Assembly (NCBI GenBank): GCA_028279685.1
Contig: JANQNG010000002.1
Span: 11,922-75,921, forward strand
Direction: 5' to 3'
Source of the DNA: Candidatus Nanoarchaeia archaeon
Lineage (GTDB): Archaea; Nanobdellota; Nanobdellia; Woesearchaeales; SKIA01
DNA length: 64,000 bases
Every line of letters starts with the position of its first letter. Within the stretch, counting starts at the first letter, position 1. The position numbers were made by a program, and so were the translations under genes. The notes beneath the pieces are model-generated. The model was given only the letters and a program-made list of their open reading frames with translations. It did no database searches and was not told the DNA's origin. Below are positions 27,845-63,595 of this stretch, in pieces.

Positions 27845-27960
27845 TAGTGTGGAGCCTCCGTTATAGGGCACAGCTACTTGTGCTGTAAGATCCCTCTCAC
27901 AGCACAGGTGCCTAGGAGACTGGACGTGAGGTAAGAACCTCGTTGCCGACGTTTTTCAGT
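27845..27960. other. GC-rich structured intergenic region (candidate ncRNA)
   Basis: The 8-bp stem TGTGCTGT/ACAGCACA is enclosed by GGCAC/GTGCC. An additional hairpin GAGGT-TCTT-ACCTC is present. A TATA-like TTTATATAT lies at 27992-28000. GC content is far above the ~33% background. Confidence 0.3.
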
Positions 27961-28035
27961 ACAGCAACAATACCTATAGAATCGTTCTCCTTTATATATC
28001 TCACAAGCCAATGTCCAGTGGGAAGTGGGTATTTT

Positions 28036-28060
28036 CCGGAAATCTTCCGGAAGAATACGG
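28036..28060. promoter_or_regulatory. two tandem self-complementary TTCCGGAA octamers (CTTCCGGAAG, TTTCCGGAAA)
   Basis: Seen directly; this is the same half-site family found in other intergenic regions of the window. Confidence 0.35.
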
Positions 28061-28073
28061 AAAGATTACGAAA

Positions 28074-34767: not shown

Positions 34768-34785
34768 TGTTCTCTCCCTTCTTTT

Positions 34786-34870
34786 CTTATTTCGGAATTA
34801 TTCATATACATTTGGGAATTATTCTCGAAGATCTTCCGTTGTTGTAACGATATCTTCCGAATAATTCGTT
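34786..34870. promoter_or_regulatory. three copies of a GAATAATTCCG(A)-like motif between two Lrp genes (candidate Lrp operator array)
   Basis: tcggaattattc (34792), gggaattattctcg (34814) and cttccgaataattcg (34856). The half-site TTCCGAA recurs elsewhere in the window. Confidence 0.4.
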
Positions 34871-34886
34871 TTTTTCCGTGATTATT

Positions 34887-43979: not shown

Positions 43980-43991
43980 TCAACATACCCC

Positions 43992-46790: not shown

Positions 46791-47225
46791 TCAAATCACA
46801 AACCCTTCTCGCTTGATTTCATCGAGAATGAAGATCTCGTTGAGACTCGTAATATTAAACTGCTGCAAGGCATCTTTAAAGCCACCCATCTCTTTCATAT
46901 CCTTAAAAATACATTCAGCATAGAAATCATATCCATCCACCAGCGAAGACAACGTATTCACATGCAGACATTCCGAAAGATACTTCTTCAACTGTTCTTT
47001 CTTTTCTGCTTTAATAGCAAAATTGACCTTCACTGAAAAACCAATCTTCTCATAATCTAGCAACGAAACATGCTTTACAATCACATCACCTTCAAGTGCT
47101 TTCATCCTGTTGAATAATGTTGAGACAGGAACATCTATTTCTTTTGAAATCTGCGCGAGACTCTTCCTTGAATCATCACGTAAATGTTTCAATAATGCTT
47201 TTTCGCTCGACGTTATAACAACCAT
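46791..47225 (-). CDS. lrp: Lrp/AsnC-family transcriptional regulator
   Basis: HTH (EKALLKHLRDDSRKSLAQISKEIDVPVSTLFNRMKALE) plus a RAM domain; 144 aa. Confidence 0.8.
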   Translation of the reverse strand: MVVITSSEKALLKHLRDDSRKSLAQISKEIDVPVSTLFNRMKALEGDVIVKHVSLLDYEKIGFSVKVNFAIKAEKKEQLKKYLSECLHVNTLSSLVDGYDFYAECIFKDMKEMGGFKDALQQFNITSLNEIFILDEIKREGFVI

Positions 47226-47269
47226 TTTCTAATTATGTAATATATTCCATTCTTTATATGTCTTGCCTG

Positions 47270-47308
47270 TGATTTTCTGAAAATCTTCTGGATAAATCAG
47301 GAAAATCA
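47270..47308. promoter_or_regulatory. inverted repeat TGATTTTCTGA...TCAGGAAAATCA upstream of the Lrp promoter
   Basis: Seen directly. A minus-strand TATA-like ACATATAAAG (47252-47260) lies about 30 nt upstream of the Lrp start at 47225. Confidence 0.3.
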
Positions 47309-50627: not shown

Positions 50628-51334
50628 TCTTTGATTTGTAATTCAACTATGCCATTAATCTTATGTAGTGCATTAAGTCCATCTTTCTTGATATCGATAT
50701 TATGTGCATTGAATACTTCATCAACCATTGTTATTCTTTCTTTTACACTATCACATAATCCGTTCACATCACTATAAGCGGGATGAATACGAAGAAGATA
50801 GTCACACAACACCACCATGTGATGCTCTTCAGCAGAGATCTTTTCTAAGTACTTATCAAATGAAAGCTGAACATATTTGTGAATAACATTCTCTGCCATC
50901 TCCTGTTCAATTGATTTCATAGGCTGCCTTCCGCCACGCTGTACTCTTCTGATAAAATTATTGAGCTTCTTTGAGCATGATTGAGCAACATAAGCTGCCC
51001 AATAAGAGGGAGATATGTGTTGTTCCAGAAAATCATAGAGCTGCTTATCTCCATACTCCTGAGCATAGACATCAGACATGAGTAATACTGCTGTGTTCTT
51101 TGAAAAATCAATTTTATCTACATCCAAATGCTTAAGATAATATTTTGATAATAGATGTTCCTCTAATGTAAGCCCCTCTTCTGAGCACTTCTTCGTTGGT
51201 TCAGCTATAATGCCTTGTTCGAAAGATATCTTTCTTTGATAAACACCTCTAGGAATTCTTTTTCCTTTACCCTGTACTTTAATATTATGAGATCTTGCTT
51301 TCAGTAGCTGTCTTACATCAACCATAGCTTTCAC
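50624..51334 (-). CDS. hypothetical protein
   Basis: 236 aa ORF; overlaps both neighbours. Confidence 0.5.
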   Translation of the reverse strand: MKAMVDVRQLLKARSHNIKVQGKGKRIPRGVYQRKISFEQGIIAEPTKKCSEEGLTLEEHLLSKYYLKHLDVDKIDFSKNTAVLLMSDVYAQEYGDKQLYDFLEQHISPSYWAAYVAQSCSKKLNNFIRRVQRGGRQPMKSIEQEMAENVIHKYVQLSFDKYLEKISAEEHHMVVLCDYLLRIHPAYSDVNGLCDSVKERITMVDEVFNAHNIDIKKDGLNALHKINGIVELQIKE

Positions 51335-52628
51335 TCGATTTAGTTTTTTTAATACCTTTACCTGATTTTTTCGAAATCTTTCCGGATTTCTTCATAATTC
51401 GTCTAATTTTCTTCAATTTAGTTGCATGTTTTTTCTTTGCATATCTGTTCTTACTAAGAATATTTTTCAATTCATTTCTAGTATCTTTCGTTATCTCATC
51501 AAATTCCTCTTTATGCTGCTTGTAAATTTCTTTCATTGCTTCAATACGCTTATCCCATCTCCATATCCTCGTGCCTCTTTCCACATAATCACCTTTTTTT
51601 ATATCTCCGACATTACCACGATATTCTCCTGCAAGTATTTTTGAGACTATTCCAAGCACTCTCTCTCCTTTATTCTCTGACTGTTGTAATTTTTGATAAT
51701 ACTTTGTAATCAATGAACGATATCTTCTCTTTGGTATTTGTTCTTCAGAAAAGGTTTTCTCTTTCAGCACATTCTTCGTCTTAATTTTTGTTTCTAGATC
51801 ATCACCAACTTGCTTTTTTGAATCATCATCATTTTTTCCAACAACTTGATATTCTCCCAGTCTTTTTCCATCTCTACCAATAATCACTCTTTCTTTCAAT
51901 TGAGTCACAATATCTTCTTTTTCCTCATCATCTGGAGTAAAATGACCTTCTTCTATGATATTCAAAGGAATATGTTCATAGCGATTTCTTATTGCTATTC
52001 TCTCTCCTTCTTGAATTTGAGGATACGCTATATTCATTGTCGCATATGGTGTGTCATTATGTTGGTTCATCACAAGACCGTAAGTATACTCAAGATAATA
52101 TTGTTCGCCATCCTCCTGCTCAACAGGAATATCTTTGAACATCCTATAATCAGTAAGAAAATTTTCAAATGTTCTGACATCCCTGCCAGAGAAAAAATTA
52201 GAAAATTTTCCATGAGAATGAGCCCATCCTGCAATTCGTTTATTGAGATTATGTTTAATATCTCTCTCTGATGTAATAGCACCTCCCCCTGATATTGTAC
52301 AATATCCTGGATAGACCGTCTGATCATGTGCAATATACGCATCATTGATAACAGGTTTTCCTTCTCTAACTGTATCTTTCTCCGCAAGAAGATAAATTGC
52401 CATTTCATGCGAAGGTAAATGAGCCTCTTGAGTTATATTCCCAAATGCACTAATAATATGTTCAAGTTTTTCTTTCGCATAAGCTGTTATATTAATTCCT
52501 TCAGCAGCAAAAGCATTAGCATGCTCTCTTATTTCAGCATTTTCCTCATCAACAGTAGTATATCCAAGCATTATTTCACCTTCTTGCATTACGTTCAACA
52601 TAGATTCGTTGAGGTAATTCCGTAGCAT
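51318..52628 (-). CDS. JAB/MPN (JAMM) metalloprotease-domain protein with a long C-terminal extension and Lys-rich tail
   Basis: Complete JAMM motif: E (SHEMAIYLL) ... HSHGKFSNFFSGRD (HxHx7Sx2D). The C-terminus is KKKHATKLKKIRRIMKKSGKISKKSGKGIKK. Confidence 0.75.
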   Translation of the reverse strand: MLRNYLNESMLNVMQEGEIMLGYTTVDEENAEIREHANAFAAEGINITAYAKEKLEHIISAFGNITQEAHLPSHEMAIYLLAEKDTVREGKPVINDAYIAHDQTVYPGYCTISGGGAITSERDIKHNLNKRIAGWAHSHGKFSNFFSGRDVRTFENFLTDYRMFKDIPVEQEDGEQYYLEYTYGLVMNQHNDTPYATMNIAYPQIQEGERIAIRNRYEHIPLNIIEEGHFTPDDEEKEDIVTQLKERVIIGRDGKRLGEYQVVGKNDDDSKKQVGDDLETKIKTKNVLKEKTFSEEQIPKRRYRSLITKYYQKLQQSENKGERVLGIVSKILAGEYRGNVGDIKKGDYVERGTRIWRWDKRIEAMKEIYKQHKEEFDEITKDTRNELKNILSKNRYAKKKHATKLKKIRRIMKKSGKISKKSGKGIKKTKSSESYG

Positions 52629-54057
52629 AACTCATAGGACCATCAATGACATTTTTCATTGAATTATAATCAAGTACATGAATCATCTCTCCAACCATGG
52701 CTGCAGCGATAATTTCATTAGACATTACTACACTAGGATTAGGACCATCGCAAATATTTCCCCCTTCTGGAAAACCTTCAAGATCTAGTTGATCTCCTAT
52801 TGAAGAAGTTACACCAGGTATATAGACAGCAACTTGCCCTGCTTTTGGATGTGTTCCTCCATCTATATAAGGTACGTTGTGTTTTTTAGTGAATGTATTC
52901 ATCCAAATTCTTGCATGCTTATTATCTACACATCCAAGCACCACATCATATTGCTTTTTAGTAAGTTCCTTTTCAGAAATTAATTTTATATTCTCTCTCT
53001 TATCTTCTCTAGAAAGCACATCTCCTAATTTTCCATTATAGACATCTGATTTTATCTTATGATCTATATTGCGAACACGCATAGAAAGCACTTCAGCCTT
53101 ATTGTGTCCGATGAAATTTCTCAATTCTGTCTGTCTATTAAGATTTTTGTGTTCTGCAACATCATAATCAACAAAATCAATCCTGCCAATTCCAAGATAG
53201 CGTAAATAAATCGAAGCCCAATTTCCTAATGCTCCCGCACCAACCACCAGCACATTATTCTTTCTATAAGTCGGAAGATTATTCTTTCTTAGATTAGATT
53301 TTAATCCTTTTCTATTCTTACTATATAAGTTATAGATAAGACGATGATTACTTGGAAGATGAGCATCATCATCGTTATACTTAAATGCATATTTCCTCAC
53401 TTCTTCAACAGCTATACCAGAAACAATTCCACTTGTAAAGCCTCCTTGATCCTTTCCATTGAATTCCTCATGTACAAGAGCATCAAGATCAGGATTCTCT
53501 TTAAGCACATTTACTCTTCCTTTATTCTTTGGCCAATAGCAAGCAATAGCGCTTCTATCTTCATCTGATGATAACGAAATAACAGGTATAGGGTTGTTCT
53601 TTCTCCTAAATGCGTAGCGAAGCACTTTTTCTTTCGAAACAACTTCATTTGTAGCATCGATAAGTATATCTGGGTTAAACCCCATGATAAACGCTTCAGC
53701 AAATCTACCATGTCTTTTGATCGTTGGAGGTGTATGGTCAATTTGATGTAATGCCTCAAAAACCATATCACTCTGCTTTTTTCCTGCAATTTTTTCTCTC
53801 TTTCCATAGAGAAATCCTTTGTCTTTTGAAGTAACTGAACGTGAATTATCAAAATAATAAATATTCCTAACACCTAAACCATAAAGTGATGCAAGCACCA
53901 TTTGCCCAAGCAAATTAGTACCCACTACAGCCACTTTTAGCTTATTTACCATCTCCTGCCTTTCATTACCCAGCATACCATCTCCGAATGCAACACTATT
54001 ACAAACATGAATTTCAGAAACCGCATCTACGTCACCCATTCGCATCGACCCCCACAA
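52576..54057 (-). CDS. E1-like (ThiF/MoeB/UBA-family) activating enzyme with two tandem Rossmann/adenylation-like domains
   Basis: The C-terminal active-type domain has VLVVGAGALGNWASIYLRYLGIGRIDFVDYDVAEHKNLNRQ. The N-terminal degenerate domain has VAVVGTNLLGQMVLASLYGLGVRNIYYFDN. Its start overlaps the upstream JAB gene. Confidence 0.75.
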   Translation of the reverse strand: MWGSMRMGDVDAVSEIHVCNSVAFGDGMLGNERQEMVNKLKVAVVGTNLLGQMVLASLYGLGVRNIYYFDNSRSVTSKDKGFLYGKREKIAGKKQSDMVFEALHQIDHTPPTIKRHGRFAEAFIMGFNPDILIDATNEVVSKEKVLRYAFRRKNNPIPVISLSSDEDRSAIACYWPKNKGRVNVLKENPDLDALVHEEFNGKDQGGFTSGIVSGIAVEEVRKYAFKYNDDDAHLPSNHRLIYNLYSKNRKGLKSNLRKNNLPTYRKNNVLVVGAGALGNWASIYLRYLGIGRIDFVDYDVAEHKNLNRQTELRNFIGHNKAEVLSMRVRNIDHKIKSDVYNGKLGDVLSREDKRENIKLISEKELTKKQYDVVLGCVDNKHARIWMNTFTKKHNVPYIDGGTHPKAGQVAVYIPGVTSSIGDQLDLEGFPEGGNICDGPNPSVVMSNEIIAAAMVGEMIHVLDYNSMKNVIDGPMSYATELPQRIYVERNARR

Positions 54058-55388
54058 CCATTATTGTAATATTCTCTTTCATATGTTTTGATAAGATTTA
54101 GCATAGACTCACAAACATCTCTTTTCTGCTCGAGTTTCTTAATTCCGATCACCCAACCAGGAAATACATTATTACTTATCCTTCCATTAATCAAATCATG
54201 AACATCATCAATATATTTTTTCTTTGGCACTAATACATCTAATAATTCATTGAATCTTGTATCAAGAATTGAAGTCTGTTTATTGCGGTGGTCTTTATCA
54301 GACATAATGACGGTTTGTGCATCACATATAACACCATAGACTTCCTCTATTGGATTAAAAGAATTAACCCCTTTGATATTATTAAAATTATGAGAAACAA
54401 TATTTGTTGCTTCATGAATTCTTTTATAGATCGAGTCATAAGTACTATTAAAAAAATCTAATTGTTTTTTCTTATGAGAATTTGTCTTTGCAAATTTATC
54501 TTCTTCTACATACAACGTTCTTTCTCTATTGAAAATTCCTGCTGGAATACCTTTTTTCTTGACCAGATTTTTATCTCTAGTAACAATTATGCGTTCTCTA
54601 ATCTGATTGACCCTTGATTTAATCTGCTGATCAATATCTTCTGTTTTAATACAAGGCACTTGCTCTTCTTCGATCTCTTCAAAAGGAACATTTTCAATTA
54701 GTGTAATTCCATTTCCCTTAGAGTAGCCAATTACTGTAAATGGCCTATCATTATCAGCATTGAATACCATTCCATATGTGTATTGCACCTCTGCAGAACC
54801 GTAAGACATAACTGTTAAAGGATGATTCTTTACCTTCTTAAGATCGAACTTATCAAAAAAACTGGAACGAACCATCTTCTGTTTATTTGGTTCCACTTGA
54901 AGATACGTTTTCCCCTTGTGTTTTACAAAACGCACATCGTCTTCTTTTTCAGTTTCTTGCATTTCAACATCAAGAAACATCTTATTGTCTTCGAGAAAAT
55001 AATTGAATGTTTTTCTATCTCTTTTTGAAAAGAAAGTGGAAATATCCCCATGCGAATGCCCCCATCCAACAACACGCATTCTTAGATTATTCTTGATATC
55101 CCTCATAGAAGTAATCAACCCATCACCTGATATAATACAATAATCAGGATACGCCTCTTGATCATGGGCAATATAGACATCACTAATAAGAGGTCTGTTC
55201 TTTTTTGCTTCTTCTTTTGTAGCAAGCATCAAAAATCCTATCTCATATGTTGGCAGACTTAAAGAAGAACAAATTGCTTTCACTCTTCGTGCAATAAGCT
55301 CACTTTTCATTTTTGCACGAGAAGTAATCCTGATAGGCGAGATCATGCTTTCAATCTTTTTATCTAATGTTGTCTCCCTCATTTTCAA
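54027..55388 (-). CDS. JAB/MPN (JAMM) metalloprotease-domain protein, paralog of 51318..52628
   Basis: VVGWGHSHGDISTFFSKRD is a perfect HxHx7Sx2D. It shares the context DVYIAHDQEAYPDYCIISGDG with DAYIAHDQTVYPGYCTISGGG in the paralog. Confidence 0.75.
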   Translation of the reverse strand: MKMRETTLDKKIESMISPIRITSRAKMKSELIARRVKAICSSLSLPTYEIGFLMLATKEEAKKNRPLISDVYIAHDQEAYPDYCIISGDGLITSMRDIKNNLRMRVVGWGHSHGDISTFFSKRDRKTFNYFLEDNKMFLDVEMQETEKEDDVRFVKHKGKTYLQVEPNKQKMVRSSFFDKFDLKKVKNHPLTVMSYGSAEVQYTYGMVFNADNDRPFTVIGYSKGNGITLIENVPFEEIEEEQVPCIKTEDIDQQIKSRVNQIRERIIVTRDKNLVKKKGIPAGIFNRERTLYVEEDKFAKTNSHKKKQLDFFNSTYDSIYKRIHEATNIVSHNFNNIKGVNSFNPIEEVYGVICDAQTVIMSDKDHRNKQTSILDTRFNELLDVLVPKKKYIDDVHDLINGRISNNVFPGWVIGIKKLEQKRDVCESMLNLIKTYEREYYNNGCGGRCEWVT

Positions 55389-56695
55389 TTCTTAAAGATT
55401 CTTTCCTCAGATATACCATGTTTTTTTGCATAGTCTTTTGCATCATCCTCATTTAACGCAATAGGAGTATAATTAGAGATGCTATGCACAGGAGTCAGCG
55501 TATTACCAATATATCCTGTTGTAATATTTCCTGTTGCTTCCCAGAGCATAAGTGCAACTCTTCGTGCTAATCCTTTATCTTTTATAGAATACTTATGAAG
55601 AAACTTAACATTAAGGTAAGACCATCTTTCCGCACCTGCAAAACAAATTCTTCCACTTGGATAGACAAAAGGATGATTATATGGCATATCACGTAATGTC
55701 GGCTCATTCTTAATAGTAACATATCTATCAGTAATATCTAGTGTTGTACCTACTCGAACACGTTTACTTCCTTCTTTTCCTTCTTCATTGAATGCATAAT
55801 ATTTCCCATCCTTCTCAAGCAAATAAGGCTCAATCTCTGCATAGAACAAATACTCATTATTGCCTCTAGGTTCATATCTTATATTACCTACTTTCTTTCG
55901 AGTTTTTTTTACTTTTTTTTTAGAAATATTTGCATCAATTTCTTTTTCTTTTTTATACAATAATAAAATTTGATTCTTAAATTTTTTACCATGTTGCAAC
56001 GCAACTTGTTCTACATCTGCACGAAGACGCAATCTATATTCATCTGCTAGCTTCTGAAGAGGCATTAATGGCTTAAGCGAATAATCTGTTCCTTTGAATG
56101 TTAAAGTTCCGTTTCTTCTAGCTTTAGAAGAAATAAGTTCATAACATGTACCAGCAATAGTCACAATACCTGGACGAGGAATTAAATCATAAATACGCGT
56201 TTCTATGTTATGTAAGTCATCTAATGCAGGATAACTATTTATTGCTGTATCGATCTTAGGATCTTCAATAACAACTTCCTTCTTTTTTTCTCTTTGATAA
56301 TTATAAATCTTAAAAACATCTTGAATAAACCTATCAAGAGATTGCTCTTTCATAGAACCATAGTAATTTATTTTTTTCGAAACTTGTGAGGATAGTTCTT
56401 TGAGTCTTCTAATAAGTTTAAAATCAATAACCCAACTCATATACTCCTTAAGATCATCTTCATTATCTTTGAATAATTCTCTCTGAAAAAGAGAAAGCTC
56501 ATCAGACTCAAAGAGAGGATATTGCTCCTTAAGATATTTCCATGCATTACCATTTGCTGAAGGAGTATTCCTTTCAATAGTATAGATACGAGAATCTAAC
56601 AACGCAAATGTTTCTCCAGACATCATGAACTTATCTAATATTGTTGGAGCTAAACAAATCTCTTTTTTCATAATACCCCCTCTACAAAAAAGCAC
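55385..56695 (-). CDS. large protein with a C-terminal ubiquitin-conjugating-enzyme (E2/UBC)-like domain
   Basis: MPYNHPFVYPSGRICFAGAERWSY matches the UBC active-site signature HPN[IV]xxxGxIC[LF]xxLxxxW, including the catalytic Cys. The N-terminal ~300 aa has no assignable domain. Confidence 0.5.
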   Translation of the reverse strand: MLFCRGGIMKKEICLAPTILDKFMMSGETFALLDSRIYTIERNTPSANGNAWKYLKEQYPLFESDELSLFQRELFKDNEDDLKEYMSWVIDFKLIRRLKELSSQVSKKINYYGSMKEQSLDRFIQDVFKIYNYQREKKKEVVIEDPKIDTAINSYPALDDLHNIETRIYDLIPRPGIVTIAGTCYELISSKARRNGTLTFKGTDYSLKPLMPLQKLADEYRLRLRADVEQVALQHGKKFKNQILLLYKKEKEIDANISKKKVKKTRKKVGNIRYEPRGNNEYLFYAEIEPYLLEKDGKYYAFNEEGKEGSKRVRVGTTLDITDRYVTIKNEPTLRDMPYNHPFVYPSGRICFAGAERWSYLNVKFLHKYSIKDKGLARRVALMLWEATGNITTGYIGNTLTPVHSISNYTPIALNEDDAKDYAKKHGISEERIFKN

Positions 56696-56704
56696 ATAAC
56701 ATGC

Positions 56705-57184
56705 CTAATCACAGAGCTTGTCCTCAAGGTTCACATACGCTGATGTTCCTCCAGGCACACTTCTTCTGGCAATAAAATCAATCAATTTATACTTCTCTTT
56801 AGCGTTGGTTTCAGAATCAATTTCTTCCTTTGTTCTAATAATCGAATCATATTCAGCAACTCGACCATCTAAATCCAAAGGTATTGGTTCTCCATTATCA
56901 ACTATTGCCTTGATCGAGACCTTGTAGTTATCAGGATCCGCATTCATATCTCTGAACCATTTACTCACTGTATTTGCTACATCTCTTTCTTCCGCATTGT
57001 ACGCTTCATTCAATGCATCTGCTTCTGGATCGATAAGTTTTCTAATCAAATCCTCCACAGTTCCTTCAAGATAAGTCTGTTCAACTTTCTTCACCAGTAA
57101 GACACCCTCATCATTGTCCTTTATCGGGACCATAGCATCAAGAGTGACATATATTGGCTTGTCATCCATAATATCAACCTCCAA
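56705..57184 (-). CDS. small acidic protein; candidate ubiquitin-like modifier precursor (internal Gly-Gly followed by a 13-aa tail)
   Basis: The ORF is robust: 159 aa, the first gene after a hairpin+T8 element, immediately upstream of the E2-like gene. The Ubl call itself is inferential. It rests on the ...ARRSVPGG|TSAYVNLEDKLCD C-terminus and beta-strand-like segments (KPIYVTL, YKVSIKAIV). Confidence 0.3.
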   Translation of the reverse strand: MEVDIMDDKPIYVTLDAMVPIKDNDEGVLLVKKVEQTYLEGTVEDLIRKLIDPEADALNEAYNAEERDVANTVSKWFRDMNADPDNYKVSIKAIVDNGEPIPLDLDGRVAEYDSIIRTKEEIDSETNAKEKYKLIDFIARRSVPGGTSAYVNLEDKLCD

Positions 57185-57228
57185 AAGTTATACTATACTA
57201 ATATCGTAATCATTCATAAGTCTTTACC

Positions 57229-57264
57229 AAAAAAAACCGCAAAATTTCCGTCGAGAAACGGAAG
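57229..57264 (-). terminator. hairpin CTTCCG-N8-CGGAAA followed by T8 on the minus strand, directly after the ATP-grasp stop codon
   Basis: Plus strand reads A8-CCG-CAAAAT-TTCCG-TCGAGAAA-CGGAAG; the TAA stop of 57267..58211 abuts it. Confidence 0.45.
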
Positions 57265-57266
57265 AA

Positions 57267-58211
57267 TTACATTCTATATTTCTTTCCTTGTGCAATATGC
57301 ATTAAGCGTCTTCCTATGAGTCTATTGAAATCATGCATATTCTCAAAATCAGGATGATCAAAGAATTTCCGGTCAATAACTCCGTATCTCCCATCACAAT
57401 CACATTCAATCACATAATTGTTTCTCTCGTGATCCTGTACAATATCAACCACACCAATATCAAATCCAACAGCATCTGCAGCCTGCAAAGCAATCCTCCT
57501 GAGATCTTCTGATGGCTCCATAAACACATAATGCGCTCCTCTAGCGATATTGATAATAGCTTCGCCAGGAGTATTAACATGTTCCTTTTCTCGTATGGTT
57601 CCAAAAGGCACCTCGTCTCCTAGCACATACATTCTCAATACACTTTTGTTAAAATCCCCATTATCTCCTATATATTCTTGCAGAAGATAAGGAGCAGCAA
57701 TAACAGAATCACCTATCTCAACATATCTTTCCTTTTCTACAATATCATATTTTCCTTCGTTATTATAAGCTACATAATTACCATGCTCCTTCATCAATAC
57801 AAAATGCTTATTTCCTGCACAATCATAAGGATACTTCAGCATAGCAATATCTCTTGTACTCATGAAAACATCTATCGCCCTCTTATTAGAGCAAAGCTCA
57901 AAGAAAGGATGGGAAATGTTGTTCTTCTTGAATAACTCATTAGATTTTATTTTATTCATGGCAATCTCTTGAGCACTATATGCGTTTATAATGGGCGTCC
58001 TCTGAGACCACCTCTCAAAATCGAATTTTGGACCGTGCATCATCATATAAGCAACATCATATCCTTCTAGCAGTTCTACATTCCCTTCTGTAAGACGATC
58101 ACATACAAACCCTTCCCTACGTATAGTCTGCTGAAGAGGCTCTACAAAATGTACATCATAATACGTATCTTTCCCCGCAATAATAGCAAATTTCAAACTG
58201 ATCCCCTCCAT
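57267..58211 (-). CDS. ATP-grasp amidoligase (RimK/glutathione-synthetase-like)
   Basis: MLKYPYDCAGNKHFVLMKEHGNY, LLQEYIGDNG...LRMYVLGDEV, and VGFDIGVVDIV...YVIECDCDG (ATP-grasp C-terminal VLEVN-type motif). Confidence 0.6.
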   Translation of the reverse strand: MEGISLKFAIIAGKDTYYDVHFVEPLQQTIRREGFVCDRLTEGNVELLEGYDVAYMMMHGPKFDFERWSQRTPIINAYSAQEIAMNKIKSNELFKKNNISHPFFELCSNKRAIDVFMSTRDIAMLKYPYDCAGNKHFVLMKEHGNYVAYNNEGKYDIVEKERYVEIGDSVIAAPYLLQEYIGDNGDFNKSVLRMYVLGDEVPFGTIREKEHVNTPGEAIINIARGAHYVFMEPSEDLRRIALQAADAVGFDIGVVDIVQDHERNNYVIECDCDGRYGVIDRKFFDHPDFENMHDFNRLIGRRLMHIAQGKKYRM

Positions 58212-58852
58212 TCTTCATACCAATGACTCGCCTCTCCATCAAGCAATACTTTTACTTCTTTATGTTTGACATCATACGTGTGATAAGCAGGATCAATAAA
58301 AAGATCTCCTGGTTCAAGATCAACCCAAGCACATGCGTGTTTTACATTTCTTCCAAAACAATCTACTTTTACACTAGTGTAATGACTTGTTAATCCTACT
58401 GTTCTTGCCATAACAACATACAAGTAAGCCATCTCTCCACAAACACCTTCACGATCACGCATTACCTCTTCTGCATTCTTATATCCATTGGTTCTCATTG
58501 ATTTTCCATAATCTATATTATTCTGCATCCAATCAAAAATACTTCTTGCTTTCTCTTGTAATGTAGAAAGTTGTATTACTTCTTTCTTTAGAAAGTTAGC
58601 AGCATTCACAGGCATGCCAAAAGGACTCTGTATGGTATCATCAACAATAAGCACTCTGTAATTACTGTTGATCTTGCTTAAGTCAAGAGTAGTATCTATC
58701 TGTTTCCTTTTCTTGAGCTTAAACCGAATATGAGATGTATCATCACAATAAGGATTAACCTGCGTTCTTCTTTTTTTCAGCGATTCTCTGATAGTACTAT
58801 CATTGTGCATTCTTCCATGAAGCTTTCGCTTAATAAGTACATTAAGAGTCAT
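58193..58852 (-). CDS. transglutaminase-like cysteine peptidase-fold protein
   Basis: GVCGEMAYLYVVMARTVGL (catalytic Cys context of the transglutaminase-like core), with downstream His/Asp candidates (HACAWVDLEPGDLFIDP). Confidence 0.6.
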   Translation of the reverse strand: MTLNVLIKRKLHGRMHNDSTIRESLKKRRTQVNPYCDDTSHIRFKLKKRKQIDTTLDLSKINSNYRVLIVDDTIQSPFGMPVNAANFLKKEVIQLSTLQEKARSIFDWMQNNIDYGKSMRTNGYKNAEEVMRDREGVCGEMAYLYVVMARTVGLTSHYTSVKVDCFGRNVKHACAWVDLEPGDLFIDPAYHTYDVKHKEVKVLLDGEASHWYEEWRGSV

Positions 58853-58861
58853 ATATTCTCC

Positions 58862-59923
58862 TCATGAAAGATATCTCATCGAATCTGTGAGATTTGCTCT
58901 CTGGACATCTCCTAAGAGCTGTGCCATCACAGCATTCTGTCTATCAGCAGCATCTAACCCTGGATGTGACTGTATAGTATCTCTTATATTTTCCAATGCG
59001 GAACTATAGCTCGCATTAAGATCGTCCTGATATTGTTGGAGCATACCAATACCTGTTGAAACTATACTCATCATATCTGAAAGTTCTACAACAGGCTCTA
59101 CTGATCCTGCAAGATCATCAAGATGTTCTTGATAAAATGAAGTGAGTGTTGACATTCTCTGTGCACCTTCAATAACAGCAGCAAATAATCGTTCAGAGAG
59201 CCATATATTCCAAATACGCTGCCTAATATGAGTAACGCTCATCGCTGAATTAAAAAACTCTCCTGTCGTATCACTTTTCTCTCTCACTACTTTCATATAT
59301 TGTTGAAGCGCATCACTATGTTTTTCGGGATCAGCATCCGGATCCAACCCTTGTAACGTTTCCTGAAGCGATTTCTCATTATACACTTGTTTAGGAACTT
59401 CCTCTTCAAGAAATTTTTTTCTCAAAGTCTCATCTCTGTTTTCAGGAATAAGCGTATCTAATGTTCCTTTTACCTCATCAAGCTTGCTTGAATATGACTC
59501 AACCATCGAATCAAGAATTGAATTTAATTGTCGCACTCTTTCCTGCTGTTCAGGGAAAATTTGATGTAAATCACGGCGATTTATGGGTTGTCTTACTATT
59601 TTATCAGCAAAATAATATTTAACATCAAGCATAGTTTTTTTCAATGGTCTTGCTTCTCTGTATTCAACATATCTTTCAAGTTCTTGCTGTCCTTTATCTA
59701 TCCCTTTAATAATATAATTAACATCTTCCATTCGAGGATTAACATTAACTGCTGTTGAACCCCCTAAGTAAGGGAGCACATCAGTTCTTGTTCGACCTAT
59801 TCTCATAGGATCTCCTGTCTGATTTCTTGGACTTGTTTGCGTTCTTGTTGTAAGAGAATTATCTTTTGTATTAACAACTACTTTTCTTCTTAATTTAAGA
59901 CTATCTTTTATTGAATCGACCAT
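58862..59923 (-). CDS. hypothetical alpha-helical acidic protein (possible Alpha-E-like partner of ATP-grasp/TGase systems)
   Basis: 353 aa from the first ATG (the ORF track starts at GTG 59932). It leads the three-gene group and is preceded by a TATA-like ATATAAAA and an AAAGGTGG ribosome-binding site. Confidence 0.45.
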   Translation of the reverse strand: MVDSIKDSLKLRRKVVVNTKDNSLTTRTQTSPRNQTGDPMRIGRTRTDVLPYLGGSTAVNVNPRMEDVNYIIKGIDKGQQELERYVEYREARPLKKTMLDVKYYFADKIVRQPINRRDLHQIFPEQQERVRQLNSILDSMVESYSSKLDEVKGTLDTLIPENRDETLRKKFLEEEVPKQVYNEKSLQETLQGLDPDADPEKHSDALQQYMKVVREKSDTTGEFFNSAMSVTHIRQRIWNIWLSERLFAAVIEGAQRMSTLTSFYQEHLDDLAGSVEPVVELSDMMSIVSTGIGMLQQYQDDLNASYSSALENIRDTIQSHPGLDAADRQNAVMAQLLGDVQRANLTDSMRYLS

Positions 59924-59989
59924 AGCAACCACCTTTTATTTAAATTAAACATAATATCAACGATCAAAACTATTTTATATGTCTTCGCT

Positions 59990-60024
59990 AAAAAAAACCG
60001 AAACAATTCCGACAGTGATCGGAA
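59990..60024 (-). terminator. hairpin TTCCGA-CAGTGA-TCGGAA adjacent to an A8/T8 run
   Basis: Seen directly. On the minus strand the order is hairpin, then T8, then the BRE/TATA of the next gene. Confidence 0.45.
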
Positions 60025-60041
60025 AAACTTCAATATACTCT

Positions 60042-60323
60042 TTAATCAATTATCTTATCACCAATTGAATAAGCTGGCATCTGTTCTACAACAGTATATG
60101 CAGATTGCTGCATCGTCATGCCGTTTGCTTCTTCACAACCGTTCATAAGACTCCCTACAATTATTCCTCCAAGAACCAATCCTTCAATATACAATGCCAT
60201 ATCAAGTTTTGTGCGCTCTCCTTTATCGTATTTTTCTTCATAGATGTAATTTCCTCTGACATCACCGCCAGTTTTAGCACGCTTTGCCAAACGATACAAT
60301 GCATTAAACGCTAATACTATCAT
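60042..60323 (-). CDS. hypothetical small protein with a Gly-rich hydrophobic segment
   Basis: 93 aa; LVLGGIIVGSLMNG is a possible TM or glycine zipper. Confidence 0.4.
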   Translation of the reverse strand: MIVLAFNALYRLAKRAKTGGDVRGNYIYEEKYDKGERTKLDMALYIEGLVLGGIIVGSLMNGCEEANGMTMQQSAYTVVEQMPAYSIGDKIID

Positions 60324-60652
60324 TGTTTTCCCTCATATTCACTATTTTTGTCCTTTCTCTTTTGAAGACTATACGGCAATGATGTTTGAGCAGGCATAAC
60401 CCCTTCCATATCATTTTGAACCAAAGGCTGCTTCTTCAAAGTATAGGGTGCAATTTTAAGTTCTTTTTCTAGTCTCTCGCGCTCATCAAGAGGCAGATCA
60501 TTCTTCAGTAGTTTATATGCACCATGACCAAACATTCCTGCCAATGATGATAAAAAAAAGCTACTAACAATCGAGTCTGATTTCACTGTCTTCTTTGTAC
60601 ACTGATAAAATCCTCCTAAACAACCATACCCGATAAGCTTTCCAAGACCCAT
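60320..60652 (-). CDS. hypothetical small protein
   Basis: Likely start MGLGKLIGYGCLGG, preceded by GGGGAAAAT. The ORF track extends it to 60784. Confidence 0.4.
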   Translation of the reverse strand: MGLGKLIGYGCLGGFYQCTKKTVKSDSIVSSFFLSSLAGMFGHGAYKLLKNDLPLDERERLEKELKIAPYTLKKQPLVQNDMEGVMPAQTSLPYSLQKRKDKNSEYEGKQ

Positions 60653-60662
60653 ATTTTCCCCT

Positions 60663-60854
60663 TTATTCGAGAAGCTCTTCAAGTGATTTCTCATATGTTG
60701 TATCTGGCATTGCAGTCGTATCTGCAATAGTAATTTCAGCTGTTGATTCAGCAACCCCTTTCTGATAGCCAATATTATATACAACAGGAGAAACTATAAG
60801 AGAGGCTAAAGCTCCATAAAATACAAAACGCTTAGCATAAGTAAATACACTCAT
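60663..60854 (-). CDS. small membrane protein, hypothetical
   Basis: 63 aa with one TM helix (FVFYGALASLIVSPVVY). Confidence 0.35.
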   Translation of the reverse strand: MSVFTYAKRFVFYGALASLIVSPVVYNIGYQKGVAESTAEITIADTTAMPDTTYEKSLEELLE

Positions 60855-61339
60855 TCTCCTTTCACCTTTTTAACAATGTAATCTTTTGCCTCTTGCATTT
60901 TCTCCCAGACTAACTCTCCTTTCTCTTTAGCAACTTTTCCTGCCTCTTCAAACGCATCATCGATACTCCCCATAGCGTCATCAATCACTTGTTTCTTCAT
61001 ATAGGCTTTCGCTTTTGATCCAAAATGATCTATCAACTCAGGCTGTTCTTCTACTTTTTCTTTTACATATTCAAACATTATCTTCCTCGTCTTCATGTTT
61101 ATATCATCGTATTCGAGCGAAGTAATTCCAAGATATGCTATTCTATTTGCATAAGTAGGATGCTCTGCAAGAACCTCTTGCTTTGCTTCAAGTTTCGATA
61201 CTAAGGCATCAAGTGCTTCATCTTCCGAGCGGCCAAGGCAAGAATACAATCCTACAGCACATAATAATGCGATTCCTGTATAGACAACAAATTTTCCAGC
61301 CCTTTCTTTTTTTGGTTTTCGAGTGTGTGTTGTTTTCAT
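60851..61339 (-). CDS. membrane-anchored hypothetical protein
   Basis: N-terminal basic stretch plus TM helix with Cys (IALLCAVGLYSC), then an acidic helical domain. Confidence 0.45.
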   Translation of the reverse strand: MKTTHTRKPKKERAGKFVVYTGIALLCAVGLYSCLGRSEDEALDALVSKLEAKQEVLAEHPTYANRIAYLGITSLEYDDINMKTRKIMFEYVKEKVEEQPELIDHFGSKAKAYMKKQVIDDAMGSIDDAFEEAGKVAKEKGELVWEKMQEAKDYIVKKVKGE

Positions 61340-61377
61340 AACAACAGATTAAATAGTATTCTTTTAATGTCTTGCCC

Positions 61378-61400
61378 AAAAAAAATCGGAAGAATTCCGA
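61378..61400 (-). terminator. A8/T8 run plus hairpin TCGGAA-GA-ATTCCGA, ~20 nt downstream of the 61419..61760 stop
   Basis: Seen directly. Confidence 0.45.
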
Positions 61401-61418
61401 AACACTCCAGAAAATATG

Positions 61419-61760
61419 CTAAAGATAATATTTTTTTAGATGCGTGTTAAAATCAACAACCATATTTTTAAAATATTCACTGTTTTCATCAAATCCTAAC
61501 AACGCAAGATTAGCGGCACCTTTCTGTTGGATGGTACAGTCATTATACTTATTAGTGAAATTAATAGTATTTCCATTCGACGATCGAATAAAATATATTG
61601 TTCCTTTATTCATAATCTCGAAAATCTCATACAAACATCCAGAAAAACTTGTACTTGATTTACTTCTAGCATCATATTTTCGAAAAAGTTTTCTCACCTC
61701 TCTTTCAAGCTCTGAAGAGTTGTTCGGCATCAATGACTGTAACATAATATTGACTCCCAT
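61419..61760 (-). CDS. hypothetical protein
   Basis: 113 aa ORF bounded by A8/T8 elements on both sides. Confidence 0.45.
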   Translation of the reverse strand: MGVNIMLQSLMPNNSSELEREVRKLFRKYDARSKSSTSFSGCLYEIFEIMNKGTIYFIRSSNGNTINFTNKYNDCTIQQKGAANLALLGFDENSEYFKNMVVDFNTHLKKYYL

Positions 61761-61846
61761 ATGCGCATATATATCTGGTTGTTTTTATGACTTACCTAAA
61801 AAAAACCGTAAAACTTCCGAAAAAACTAGAATAATCTTGTCAGTTT

Positions 61847-62329
61847 TCACAATGATTCTTTTGCTGTTTCCATCAAATTAAACAACATAATATCAGTCAT
61901 GAACGCTTCTTTCTTGATATCGTCAACAATATAATAGATTTGCGTTGATTCTATCTTAAATGCATCCTCTAATGATTCTTTGAACGCCTCCATATCTTTG
62001 ATCTGCTTGAAAACACCCTCAACAAGAAAATCATAGCCGTTATTAATCTGATACATGCTATTCACCGAAGGATGCTTGAAGAGATGCTTCTGCAGGTTCT
62101 TTCTATCTTCTCTATTGACTTTAATGAAGAGCTGTGCTTTTGCATGAAACCCAAGCTTAGAGAAATCAACAAGGCTGGTGTGCTTTGTGATAATATTTTC
62201 TTCATGTTGTTTCATTCTATCAAAGATAGTTGAGACAGGTATCCCTGTCTTTTTACTCATCTTAGTCAGTGCAATTCGTGCATTTGATCTCAATTGTGCC
62301 AGTATTTTCAGATCGTTTTGATTCACCAA
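61847..62329 (-). CDS. lrp: Lrp/AsnC-family transcriptional regulator (paralog of 34887..35363)
   Basis: HTH_AsnC plus RAM domain; 160 aa. Confidence 0.85.
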   Translation of the reverse strand: MVNQNDLKILAQLRSNARIALTKMSKKTGIPVSTIFDRMKQHEENIITKHTSLVDFSKLGFHAKAQLFIKVNREDRKNLQKHLFKHPSVNSMYQINNGYDFLVEGVFKQIKDMEAFKESLEDAFKIESTQIYYIVDDIKKEAFMTDIMLFNLMETAKESL

Positions 62330-62395
62330 CGAACACCTCTACATATCCTATATCTTTTATCATTCAAGAACTTTTGCCCTTGAAAACTGAAAATA

Positions 62396-62413
62396 TTCCG
62401 GTGTAGACCGGAA
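62396..62413. promoter_or_regulatory. palindrome TTCCGG-TGTAGA-CCGGAA (extended AATATTCCGG...CCGGAAATAT) in the divergent region between two Lrp-family genes
   Basis: Seen directly; it lies about 70 nt upstream of the 61847..62329 start. Confidence 0.4.
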
Positions 62414-62614: not shown

Positions 62615-63595
62615 ATGAGAAGGGATAAACTAAAAATCGATCTTCTTGATCGTAAGATCCTTTACTATCTTGACATCAATGCGCGGCAGCCAACCACCAC
62701 ATTAGCAAAAAAAGTCCGTGCTAGCCCCGCAACTGTTGAATACAGGATCAAACGTATGGAACGAGGAGGGTTAATAAAGAATTATATGACCTTTCTTGAT
62801 GCGGGAAAGATAGGATACATGGTTTGGAATGTCTATCTTGAACTGCATAATGTTACAGAAAAAGAGGAATCTGAGCTGTTCACATATCTTTGTAATTTAG
62901 AGAATAGTTGGTGGGTTGCTCGTTGTGCAGGAAAATGGGACGCAGTCTATAGTATAGGAGTCAAAAACATCAAAGAGTTTTACCGTACAGTAACTGATGT
63001 CTGGAATAGATTCAGCAAGTATATCATCAGACAAAGTATTGAAGCGCATGTTGAACTTGCAGTAATATCAAGAGGCTATTTTCTAAACAAGCCAGGCATT
63101 AGTGTTCCTTGGTATACAACATTTCAGCAAGAGATACTAACAGAAATAGAAAGAAAAATACTTAAAACTATCTCGGAAAACGCAAGAATGCCAACCACAG
63201 AAATCGCAAGAAAAACTACGTTGACTCCTAAAATCGTCTCTTATCATCTCAAAGATCTTGAACGAAGAGGAATTATTAGTAGATACAGACTTCAACTTGA
63301 TGTTTCGAAAATTGGATTCAAATTCTTCAAAGCAATTGTCTATCTAAAGGTTTTTACCTATGAAATGAATATGCAACTCAAAGAATACTGTATTCAAGAA
63401 GGTAATATCTTTCATTATGAGCAAAAAATAGGACACTGGATGCTTGAACTCGAACTTGATGCAAGAGATTTCGAGCGTGCAGATAGCCAGATGAAGAAAC
63501 TGAAAGAGCGTTTCCCTGACTTTATTAGAAATTATGAATTGCTACTCATCACAGAAGAACTCAAAGGAGACCTTGACTTTAGTAAGGTATTGTAG
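62615..63595 (+). CDS. internally duplicated (tandem) Lrp/AsnC-like regulator
   Basis: Two HTH_AsnC-like units (LDRKILYYLDINARQPTTTLAKKV...IKRMERGGLI and IERKILKTISENARMPTTEIARKT...LKDLERRGII), each followed by a RAM-like segment. Start taken at MRRDKL. Confidence 0.7.
   Translation: MRRDKLKIDLLDRKILYYLDINARQPTTTLAKKVRASPATVEYRIKRMERGGLIKNYMTFLDAGKIGYMVWNVYLELHNVTEKEESELFTYLCNLENSWWVARCAGKWDAVYSIGVKNIKEFYRTVTDVWNRFSKYIIRQSIEAHVELAVISRGYFLNKPGISVPWYTTFQQEILTEIERKILKTISENARMPTTEIARKTTLTPKIVSYHLKDLERRGIISRYRLQLDVSKIGFKFFKAIVYLKVFTYEMNMQLKEYCIQEGNIFHYEQKIGHWMLELELDARDFERADSQMKKLKERFPDFIRNYELLLITEELKGDLDFSKVL

What the first reader, a model, noticed from the sequence alone, without database searches (positions are those of the whole stretch)
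57229..62413. Family of TTCCG/CGGAA palindromic elements, often coupled to an exact A8/T8 tract, recurring in intergenic regions
At 57229-57264, 59990-60024, 61378-61400, 61798-61820 and 62396-62413 the intergenic DNA carries an inverted repeat built from the same half-site (TTCCG ... CGGAA). The spacers are 2-8 nt. Four of the five copies are followed on the minus (coding) strand by exactly eight T residues and then a TATA-like box for the next gene. Related copies occur at 28036-28060 and 34786-34870. Hairpin plus oligo-U can act as a terminator, but using one shared stem sequence for every terminator is not expected by chance. The elements could be binding sites for one of the many Lrp paralogs, a small dispersed repeat, or combined terminator/operator modules. 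Copies are densest around the Ubl and peptide-tagging locus.
Basis: seen in the sequence. Interest (0 to 1): 0.55.

Follow-up and report, generated by a model that had tools for sequence, protein, structure and literature searches.

The report
Repeated Lrp-type operator–promoter cassette
The repeated TTCCG/CGGAA elements are parts of a roughly 50-bp control cassette (a regulator-binding box, a run of eight T's and a promoter) placed in front of each transcription unit of one archaeal gene cluster, most likely so that a cluster-encoded Lrp-family regulator can switch the units together; this is a tidy new example of a known kind of regulation, not a new kind of element.

Summary
On the minus (coding) strand, four near-identical cassettes (57211-57263, 59972-60024, 61360-61412, 61780-61832) read [TTCCG]-N8-[CGGAA-N3-TTnCG]-N1-T8-[rGnnAAGn]-[TATA-like]. 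Weaker copies without a T run lie at 62361-62413, 51345-51397 and 47251-47303. All seven lie in one Ubl-like/E1/ATP-grasp cluster, each upstream of a gene start. The copy at 61798-61820 is not an inverted repeat.

Cassettes sit at orthologous positions in clusters of other archaeal MAGs, two labelled Woesearchaeota, whose proteins are only 24-53% identical. They are absent from 73 kb of control loci. The core box shows no compensatory changes. It has the 5-3-5 form of archaeal Lrp/FFRP sites (FL11 optimum CCGAAA-WWW-TTTCGG). The closest solved relative of the cluster Lrp is FL11, and it shares the base-contacting residues. The box lies at a fixed distance upstream of the BRE/TATA, as in Ptr2/LysM/Ss-LrpB activation.

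Best reading: an Lrp-type operator fused to a promoter, with T8 as a fixed spacer and probably the U-tract terminator of the preceding unit. Binding, start sites and 3' ends are untested. New member of a known kind; moderate-to-low interest.

The parts
57211..57263 (-). Cassette e1. It reads H1 TTCCG (57263-57259), N8, H2 CGGAA (57250-57246), ATT, H3 TTGCG (57242-57238), G, T8 (57236-57229), GGTAAAGA (57228-57221), then the TATA-like CTTATGAATG (57220-57211). It starts 3 nt after the stop codon of the ATP-grasp gene and lies upstream of the 154-aa '...PGG' Ubl-like gene (ATG at 57169, preceded by GGAGGT).
   Evidence: It scores 40.3 bits with a PWM built only from non-window copies, against a null maximum of 9.2. 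Positional orthologs are L006 4015-4036, the L031 copy upstream of 9205 and the L035 copy upstream of 2549.
59972..60024 (-). Cassette e2. It reads TTCCG (60024-60020), N8, CGGAA (60011-60007), TTG, TTTCG (60003-59999), G, T8 (59997-59990), AGCGAAGA, CATATAAAAT. It lies upstream of the 353-aa / transglutaminase-like / ATP-grasp operon.
   Evidence: PWM score 30.3 bits. The ortholog L006 7933-7961 precedes a 353-aa gene and a transglutaminase-like gene (33% identical).
61360..61412 (-). Cassette e3. It reads TTCTG, N8, CGGAA (61399-61395), TTC, TTCCG (61391-61387), A, T8 (61385-61378), GGGCAAGA, CATTAAAAGA. It lies upstream of the 162-aa gene (ATG 61339), whose mRNA is probably leaderless.
   Evidence: PWM score 42.8 bits. 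This is the only window copy in which the 13-mer is a perfect palindrome abutting the T8.
61780..61832 (-). Cassette e4. It reads CGGAA (61819-61815), GTT, TTACG (61811-61807), G, T8 (61805-61798), AGGTAAGT, CATAAAAACA. There is no upstream half-site. It lies between the Lrp-A stop codon (61847) and the 108/113-aa gene (ATG 61745 or 61760).
   Evidence: PWM score 33.2 bits.
62361..62413 (-). Cassette e5, a degenerate copy. It reads TTCCG-N8-CGGAA (62413-62396), TAT, TTTCA, G, TTTTCAAG (no T8), GGCAAAAG. It lies in the divergent region upstream of the Lrp-A gene and is a candidate autoregulatory site.
   Evidence: (7.5 bits).
51345..51397 (-). Cassette m51, a weaker copy. It reads CGGAA (51384-51380), AGA, TTTCG, A, AAAAATCA (no T run), GGTAAAGG, TATTAAAAAA. 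It lies inside the 3' end of the 423-aa gene, just upstream of the 233-aa gene.
   Evidence: (12.8 bits against a null maximum of 9.2).
47251..47303 (-). Cassette m47, a degenerate copy. It reads TTCCT-N8-CAGAA (47290-47286), GAT, TTTCA, G, AAAATCAC, AGGCAAGA, CATATAAAGA. It lies upstream of Lrp-B (46791-47225).
   Evidence: (the best BRE+TATA score in the window).
61847..62329 (-). Lrp-A, an Lrp/AsnC-family regulator (HTH plus RAM domain). Its best solved relative is FL11/PH1519. The residues aligned to the FL11 base contacts are L24, P34, V35, S36, T37 and F39.
46791..47225 (-). Lrp-B, a short (144 aa) Lrp-type regulator at the other end of the cluster. It carries the same PVSTxF recognition loop. 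It is the probable ortholog (41% identical, same length) of the Lrp that heads the L031 cluster.
28036..28062 (.). An isolated perfect core box, CCGGAAATCTTCCGG (28036-28050), overlapping TTCCG-N8-CGGAA (28045-28062). There is no T8. It lies between the stop of gene 28074-28718 and an unannotated, structured non-coding stretch.
   Evidence: and (the box-only PWM gives 23.6 bits against a null maximum of 18.3).
34786..34878 (-). A cluster of CGGAA/TTCCG half-sites between two further Lrp paralog genes (34887-35363 and 34312-34767). It is not a full cassette.

Best explanation
Each element is part of a fixed-geometry cis-regulatory cassette that precedes a transcription unit of a conserved archaeal gene cluster. 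The cluster encodes a Ubl-like '...PGG' protein, a ThiF/E1-like protein, an ATP-grasp protein, a transglutaminase-like protein and several proteins of unknown function.

Read on the coding strand, the cassette has these parts:
1. An optional auxiliary half-site, TTCCG.
2. Eight base pairs of spacer.
3. A 13-bp core box, CGrAA-N3-TTyCG.
4. One base.
5. An 8-bp T tract.
6. A purine-rich BRE-like octamer, rGnnAAGn.
7. A TATA box.

Proposed mechanism, with the status of each step:
- Inferred: a dimer of a cluster-encoded Lrp/AsnC (FFRP) regulator binds the core box. The candidates are Lrp-A and/or Lrp-B, which share the L24/P34/V35/S36/T37/F39 recognition surface.
- Inferred: because the box sits at an invariant distance just upstream of BRE/TATA, the bound dimer acts on TBP/TFB recruitment. 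This would be activation in the manner of Ptr2, LysM and Ss-LrpB.
- Inferred: the auxiliary TTCCG lies two helical turns (21 bp) from the proximal arm and helps a second dimer or a higher oligomer to bind.
- Inferred: degenerate copies in the promoters of the two Lrp genes give autoregulation.
- Inferred: the T8 keeps the box-to-promoter spacing exact. Where a co-directional gene ends just upstream, it also acts as the archaeal U-tract terminator that insulates the units.
- Shown: the sequence architecture, its statistical significance, its restriction to the cluster, its conservation at orthologous positions, and the lack of covariation.
- Not shown: protein binding, the direction of regulation, transcription start sites and 3' ends.
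For: 1. The block is far beyond chance. The pattern CGGAA-N6-CGG-T8-nGnnAAG gives 4 matches against 0.00 expected. A PWM built only from 11 copies in other genomes scores the four window copies at 30-43 bits, against a shuffle maximum of 9.2. The next-best hits are the m51, e5 and m47 copies, all in the same cluster.

2. It is specific to the cluster. No other promoter in the 64-kb window has the box or the T8, although those promoters do have ordinary TATA boxes. A window-only PWM finds copies only inside the orthologous clusters of L031, L035 and L006, plus two copies in L010 and one in L005. It finds none in 73 kb of unrelated control loci.

3. It is conserved at orthologous positions. Copies lie upstream of the '...PGG' gene in the window, L006, L031 and L035, and upstream of the 353-aa/transglutaminase pair in the window and L006. 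The proteins there are only 24-53% identical.

4. It is a protein site, not a structure. Cells pairing in the putative stem are 80.4% against 79.5 +/- 1.3% in column shuffles, and compensatory changes do not exceed the shuffles. Position c' of the proximal arm takes all four bases while CGGAA stays fixed.

5. It matches the Lrp/FFRP site form abcdeWWWe'd'c'b'a'. The FL11 optimum is CCGAAA[AAT/ATT]TTTCGG (PMC2715240). FL11 is the best solved relative of Lrp-A (E = 3e-12). The aligned contact residues S36 (G at b), T37/P34 (C or T at a), L24 (A·T at d and e) and hydrophobic F39 (pyrimidine opposite c) fit CG[G/A]AA (inference).

6. An Lrp gene is a conserved member of the cluster and carries a cassette in its own promoter in both the window and L031.

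7. The position fits activation. The review PMC2995911 describes activating archaeal Lrps as binding a dimer site just upstream of BRE at a highly constrained position, with extra sites two or three helical turns away. Here the gap between box and BRE-like octamer is always 1 + 8 bp.

8. T8 is plausible as a terminator. [quoted passage not shown] Other transcription-unit ends in the window carry T6-T7 runs.
Against: - No binding, start-site or 3'-end data exist. The assignment of the regulator is an inference.
- The central triplet is only 73% A/T (for example ATC, ACT, TTC), where the FFRP rule expects WWW.
- The Lrp that heads the L031 cluster has a different recognition loop (PAAAIY), yet the L031 boxes are similar.
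- At least three window paralogs share the PVSTxF loop, so the regulator cannot be singled out.
- Copies in L005 and L010 lie outside any recognisable Ubl/E1 cluster. The regulon may therefore be wider, or the cassette may be a more general strong promoter of the lineage.
- The role of the T tract is unresolved. It is present in two divergent-promoter copies with no upstream gene to terminate (L031 upstream of 5658, L035 upstream of 1602). It is absent from the intergenic m47 copy. Sense-strand T8 runs also occur inside coding regions, for example at 60552-60559.
- Only 64 kb of this genome was available.
Confidence: 0.55

Rival explanations
1. The elements are hairpin plus oligo-U (bacterial-style intrinsic) terminators that share one stem sequence. 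The adjacent promoter is incidental.
For: Each of e1-e4 lies directly after a co-directional stop codon and has a T8 on the sense strand. The consensus scan flags e3, e2 and e5 as terminator-like. e1 and L010 fold better than shuffles, with z = -2.6 and -3.0.
Against: The stem next to the T8 is broken in e1 (G·G) and e4 (G·A). The stable hairpin of e1 and e2 is the other, 18-bp palindrome, and it ends 11 nt before the T run. There is no compensatory covariation across 17 copies. The spacing to BRE/TATA is invariant, which a terminator does not need. Cassettes occur in divergent promoter regions and inside a gene without the T run. Archaeal termination needs the U tract, not a hairpin (PMC8716108).
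Confidence: 0.1
2. The box is an operator for a regulator that is not an Lrp-A/B-type protein. One candidate is the divergently encoded tandem double-HTH protein (62615-63595), possibly reading the 18-bp TTCCG-N8-CGGAA. Another is a factor encoded elsewhere.
For: In the window the 18-bp palindrome is exact in e1, e2, e5 and at 28045. The double-HTH gene adjoins e5. The L031 cluster Lrp has a divergent recognition loop.
Against: The 18-bp arrangement is not conserved. In other lineages the upstream half-site lies at N7 or N1, or is absent, whereas the 13-bp core is present everywhere. No homolog of the double-HTH protein was seen in the L031 cluster. Its aligned recognition residues (T24/S34/P35/A36/T37/E39 and T24/T34/P35/K36/I37/S39) do not fit the FL11-type code (by inspection).
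Confidence: 0.2
3. The cassette is a lineage-wide extended (strong) promoter read by the basal machinery, perhaps by a particular TFB/TBP variant. It would not be the operator of a specific regulon.
For: The whole 41-bp block, including the BRE-like and TATA parts, is conserved as a unit. Copies exist in L005 and L010 outside any recognisable cluster.
Against: In 64 kb of the window and in the 11 kb flanking the L031 cluster, ordinary promoters lack it. The exact pattern occurs only once per MAG in the three archaeal MAGs found among 185,579 species genomes.
Confidence: 0.12
4. The copies are a small dispersed or mobile repeat (MITE-like), or a recently duplicated segment.
For: Four copies that are about 70-80% identical lie within 4.6 kb.
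Against: There are no terminal inverted repeats or target duplications. The copies are always in one orientation relative to the downstream gene. They are conserved at orthologous positions in genomes whose proteins are 24-53% identical. Viral contigs gave no matches.
Confidence: 0.03

Closest known systems
FL11 (Pyrococcus PH1519) and other archaeal FFRP/Lrp operator boxes of the form abcdeWWWe'd'c'b'a'
   Same: Both are 13-15-bp 5-3-5 palindromes. The half-site here, (C)CGrAA, is nearly identical to the FL11 SELEX optimum CCGAAA. The adjacent regulator's best solved relative is FL11, and it shares L24, S36 and T37.
   Different: Position c is mostly G, where FL11 prefers A. Residue 39 is Phe, not His. 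The central triplet often contains a C or G. The promoter-proximal arm is degenerate. Binding has not been tested.
Activating upstream sites of Ptr2 (M. jannaschii), LysM and Ss-LrpB
   Same: In both cases a dimer site lies just upstream of BRE at a tightly constrained position. Auxiliary sites are phased by two helical turns. The regulator gene is itself targeted (PMC2995911).
   Different: Here the gap is a conserved exact T8. The cassette is repeated 5-7 times within one gene cluster. Activation versus repression is not known.
Archaeal U-tract terminators (aCPSF1/FttA-assisted)
   Same: A sense-strand run of eight T's (equivalent to two U4 tracts) lies 20-45 nt after the stop codon.
   Different: The run is of fixed length and at a fixed distance from the next promoter. 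It is also present where there is nothing upstream to terminate, and absent from some copies.

Membership tests
Archaeal Lrp/FFRP operator box | A 13-bp inverted repeat with 5-bp arms and a 3-bp centre (abcde-NNN-e'd'c'b'a') | tested here: met
   In 17 aligned copies the distal arm is CG[G/A]AA (C, A and A invariant; G in 16 of 17). The proximal arm is TTnCG-like, and 80% of cells are complementary.
Archaeal Lrp/FFRP operator box | An A/T-only central triplet (WWW) | tested here: inconclusive
   37 of 51 central bases are A or T (73%, against about 65% background). Typical triplets are ATC, ACT, ATT and TTC (counted by hand).
Archaeal Lrp/FFRP operator box | An Lrp/AsnC-family regulator whose base-contacting residues are compatible with the half-site | tested here: met
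   Lrp-A, Lrp-B and the paralog at 34887-35363 carry L24, P34, V35, S36, T37 and F39 when aligned to FL11. Under the published contact pattern this fits C/T-G-(G/A)-A-A. This is a compatibility argument, not a proof. The Lrp of the L031 cluster has PAAAIY instead.
Archaeal Lrp/FFRP operator box | Demonstrated binding by the regulator | not testable with these tools
   This needs EMSA, footprinting or ChIP.
Lrp-type upstream activating site (Ptr2/LysM/Ss-LrpB type) | A core dimer site immediately upstream of BRE at a constrained distance | tested here: met
   The gap from the box to the BRE-like octamer is 1 + 8 bp in all 17 aligned copies. Two further copies appear shifted by 1 nt.
Lrp-type upstream activating site (Ptr2/LysM/Ss-LrpB type) | Stimulation of transcription through TBP/TFB recruitment | not testable with these tools
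   This needs in vitro transcription or expression data.
Bacterial-type intrinsic terminator | A stable stem directly abutting the U tract, maintained by compensatory changes | tested here: not met
   Only e3, L006, L010 and L005 have an intact stem next to the T8. It is broken in e1 and e4. No measure of covariation exceeds the shuffles.
Archaeal U-tract terminator | A run of at least 4-7 T on the sense strand shortly after the stop codon | tested here: met
   e1-e4 have a T8 20-45 nt after the upstream stop codon. Other unit ends in the window have T6-T7 runs. Actual 3' ends have not been mapped.
MITE / dispersed repeat | Terminal inverted repeats, target-site duplication and variable insertion sites | tested here: not met
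   The orientation relative to the downstream gene is fixed, and the positions are orthologous across distant genomes.

The most novel reading that the evidence does not exclude
The cassette is a lineage-specific, bifunctional insulator-activator unit of Woesearchaeota-like (DPANN) archaea. An exact T8 would both terminate the preceding transcript and act as a rigid A-tract spacer that sets the contact between the Lrp and TBP. One small Lrp could then coordinate 5-7 separately insulated transcription units of an uncharacterised Ubl/E1-like conjugation system. The non-coding cassette is conserved better than the proteins it controls.
Probability: 0.25. Interest if true: 0.5.

Novelty: new member of a known kind. 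Interest (0 to 1): 0.33.

Why it matters
- It gives a concrete, testable regulon for an uncultivated DPANN-type archaeon. It names a box, candidate regulators, and 5-7 promoters that define the transcription units of a conserved but uncharacterised cluster (Ubl-like, E1, ATP-grasp, transglutaminase-like).
- The cassette is a compact probe for finding further members of the regulon in related MAGs.
- It may be a natural example of a U-tract terminator and an activator-dependent promoter packed into about 50 bp.
- It does not change what is known about how archaeal Lrp regulators work.

Tried and rejected
- Rfam and tRNA scans of the window found nothing at or near the elements.
- The exact-pattern scan of 185,579 species genomes gave 10 hits. 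Three are archaeal and true. The other seven come from bacterial MAGs and were not inspected; I take them to be chance matches.
- The same pattern in JGI metagenomes gave 10 hits, of which only one is a true copy (L012, the same locus as L010). The others lack the TATA part and lie in GC-richer, probably bacterial contigs.
- Two viral-contig scans gave nothing.
- Homologs of the transglutaminase-like protein mostly led to unrelated contexts without cassettes (L023-L030). I used these as negative controls.
- The hairpin/terminator reading was tested by folding and by pair counting and was rejected as the main function.
- A second full Lrp box upstream was looked for and not found. Only the half-site TTCCG is conserved there; the expected distal arm is not (inspection).
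- The PADLOC defence models matched only the E1 domain.
- ARAGORN and Rfam did not confirm the tRNA-like sequence downstream of the L005 copy.
- The NCBI contig that holds the window (144.8 kb) could not be fetched beyond the window.

Full report
**Source and setting.** The window has 35% G+C and is archaeal: it encodes RadA at 26363-27391 and Nre at 9157-10362. An identical stretch is found on a metagenome contig from run SRR20820740. From about 62.4 kb down to 46.8 kb the minus strand carries one long gene cluster. Its genes, in order, are:
- an Lrp/AsnC regulator (Lrp-A);
- five small proteins;
- a 353-aa protein, a transglutaminase-like protein and an ATP-grasp protein;
- a 154-aa protein ending in ...PGG plus a short tail (Ubl-like);
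- proteins of 428 and 451 aa, a ThiF/E1-like protein, and proteins of 423, 233, 415 and 294 aa;
- a polysaccharide-deacetylase-like protein;
- a second, short Lrp (Lrp-B).

**Checking the observation.** TTCCG-N(0-10)-CGGAA occurs 5 times against 0.12 expected. With the spacing fixed at N8 there are four exact copies (57246, 60007, 62396, 28045) and one copy with a single mismatch (61395). Exact A8 runs lie at 57229, 59990, 61378 and 61798.

Aligning the four A8-linked copies on the coding (minus) strand shows that the conserved object is a linear block of about 45 bp, not a stem. It reads CGGAA-N3-TTnCG-N1-T8-rGnnAAGn-CAT(A/T)(A/T)AAA. This pattern has 4 matches against 0.00 expected.

One is the 18-bp TTCCG-N8-CGGAA (e1, e2, e5). 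The other is the 13-bp CGGAA-N3-TTCCG that abuts the T8, which is perfect only in e3. The copy at 61798-61820 has just one good half-site. TTCCG/CGGAA pentamers are enriched 3.5-fold in non-coding DNA.

**Position relative to genes.** Each cassette begins a few to about 20 nt after the stop codon of the preceding co-directional gene. Each ends in a TATA-like box 25-55 nt before the next start codon. Three of those starts have a GGAGG-like ribosome-binding site, and one looks leaderless. Ordinary promoters elsewhere in the window have similar TATA boxes with an 'aaac'-type BRE, but no box and no T8.

**Related sequences.**
- An exact-pattern scan of 185,579 species genomes returned three archaeal MAG contigs, two of them labelled Woesearchaeota. 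Each has the same cassette, including the unspecified TATA part: CCGGAA-N3-TTCCGG-T8-GGnnAAGnCATAT. The seven bacterial-MAG hits of that scan were not inspected.
- The metagenome scan added only a duplicate of one of these loci.
- L006 turned out to be an orthologous cluster: transglutaminase-like protein 33% identical, ATP-grasp 39%, '...PGG' protein 24%. It has two cassettes at the positions of e2 and e1.
- A search with the 428-aa protein found further orthologous clusters.
- L031 has diverged cassettes in front of five units, including its own Lrp gene. L035 has two.
- In these copies the T tract is interrupted (TTTTTCTT, TTTTTATT and so on) but stays 8 bp long.

**Independent scoring.** A PWM built only from the 11 non-window copies scores e1-e4 at 30-43 bits, against a shuffle maximum of 9.2. 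It also reveals weaker copies:
- m51 (51345-51397), which is intragenic and has no T run;
- e5;
- m47 (47251-47303), upstream of Lrp-B.

All of these lie in the same cluster. Conversely, a window-only PWM finds copies only within the clusters of L031, L035 and L006, two in L010 and one in L005. It finds none in 73 kb of unrelated loci.

**Structure or protein site?** Across 17 aligned copies, 80.4% of cells in the putative 6-bp stem pair. Column shuffles give 79.5 +/- 1.3%, and compensatory changes do not exceed the shuffles. So the palindrome reflects conserved arm sequences, not a maintained helix.

The third position of the proximal arm takes G, T, C and A in e1-e4, while CGGAA never changes. 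RNA folding is inconsistent. In e1 and e2 the stable hairpin is the 18-bp palindrome, and it ends 11 nt before the T run. Only e3 has a stem abutting the T8, and e4 has none. A shared terminator stem is therefore not the explanation.

**Which protein?** Archaeal Lrp/FFRP proteins bind sites of the form abcdeWWWe'd'c'b'a'. The SELEX optimum for FL11 is CCGAAA[AAT/ATT]TTTCGG (PMC2715240), almost the same as the box here, (C)CGrAA-N3-TTyCG(G).

The best solved relative of Lrp-A is FL11 itself. The residues aligned to the FL11 base contacts are L24, P34, V35, S36, T37 and F39. Under the published contact pattern these fit C/T at a, G at b, a pyrimidine opposite c, and A·T at d and e. This is my inference. 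Lrp-B and one more paralog share this loop. The tandem double-HTH protein next door does not.

An Lrp gene is a conserved member of the cluster. Lrp-B is 41% identical to the Lrp heading the L031 cluster, and both have a cassette in their own promoter.

The review PMC2995911 describes activating archaeal Lrps (Ptr2, LysM, Ss-LrpB) as using a dimer site just upstream of BRE at a highly constrained position, with auxiliary sites two or three helical turns away, and as commonly autoregulating. Here the distance from box to promoter is invariant. The auxiliary TTCCG lies 21 bp from the proximal arm in the window, and 20 bp away in L005 and L031.

[quoted passage not shown] Other transcription-unit ends in this window carry T6-T7 runs. 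A sense-strand T8 right after a stop codon is therefore a credible terminator.

Several facts complicate this:
- T tracts also occur in cassettes with no upstream co-directional gene (L031 upstream of 5658, L035 upstream of 1602).
- They are missing from the intergenic copy m47 and from the intragenic copy m51.
- Sense-strand T8 runs exist inside genes.

I conclude that the 8-bp length is constrained by spacing. T-richness probably serves termination and/or DNA geometry. This part remains unresolved.

**Verdict.** The finding is a real, conserved, cluster-specific cis-regulatory cassette. It is most likely an Lrp-type operator fused at fixed geometry to a promoter, with a T8 that probably doubles as the terminator of the preceding unit. 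It is a new example of a known regulatory design, in a poorly studied lineage and in front of an uncharacterised Ubl/E1-like system. Binding, the direction of regulation, start sites and 3' ends are all untested.

Noticed in passing
window 46791-62329 (minus strand); L006, L031, L035, L036: A conserved gene cluster of Woesearchaeota-like archaea. It encodes a ~150-aa protein ending in ...PGG plus a short tail (Ubl-like), a ThiF/E1-like protein, ATP-grasp and transglutaminase-like proteins, and several 415-450-aa proteins with no Pfam or PADLOC match. Only 4 homologs of the 428-aa protein were found among 5.8 billion sequences.
   Followed up: partly
window 27837-28030: A GC-rich, visibly self-complementary non-coding stretch. 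It has its own TATA-like box (about 27990-28000, minus strand) downstream of the perfect box at 28036-28050. It has no Rfam or tRNA match and may be an unannotated RNA gene.
   Followed up: partly
L005 3085-3215: The cassette in this Woesearchaeota MAG is followed by a sequence with a tRNA-like 3' end (GGGTTCAAATCCCAGCGC), not by an ORF. ARAGORN and Rfam do not call it. It could be an intron-containing or split tRNA.
   Followed up: partly
window 39544-46694 (minus strand): Three consecutive large genes (879, 599 and 900 aa), each with a eukaryote-type Ser/Thr protein kinase domain, lie directly downstream of the cluster.
   Followed up: no
window 62615-63595 (plus strand): A 326-aa protein made of two tandem Lrp-type HTH modules, like a fused pseudo-dimer. 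It is transcribed divergently from Lrp-A. Its recognition-loop residues differ from those of the other Lrp paralogs.
   Followed up: partly
window 34312-35363: Two more Lrp paralog genes lie in tandem, with a cluster of CGGAA/TTCCG and GAATTATTC repeats between them (34786-34878). This may be a second, separate Lrp control region.
   Followed up: no
window 19267-20991 (minus strand): An aspartyl-tRNA synthetase with a GAD insertion domain, which is the bacterial-type architecture, on an archaeal contig.
   Followed up: no
window 60552-60559, 29324-31, 34017-24, 37897-904, 42963-70: T8 runs on the sense strand inside predicted coding regions of minus-strand genes. A T8 alone may therefore not be a complete terminator in this organism.
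   Followed up: no
window 13166-13782 and 18473-18916: Two unusually long stretches (617 and 444 bp) without an ORF of 90 aa or more. They were not examined.
   Followed up: no
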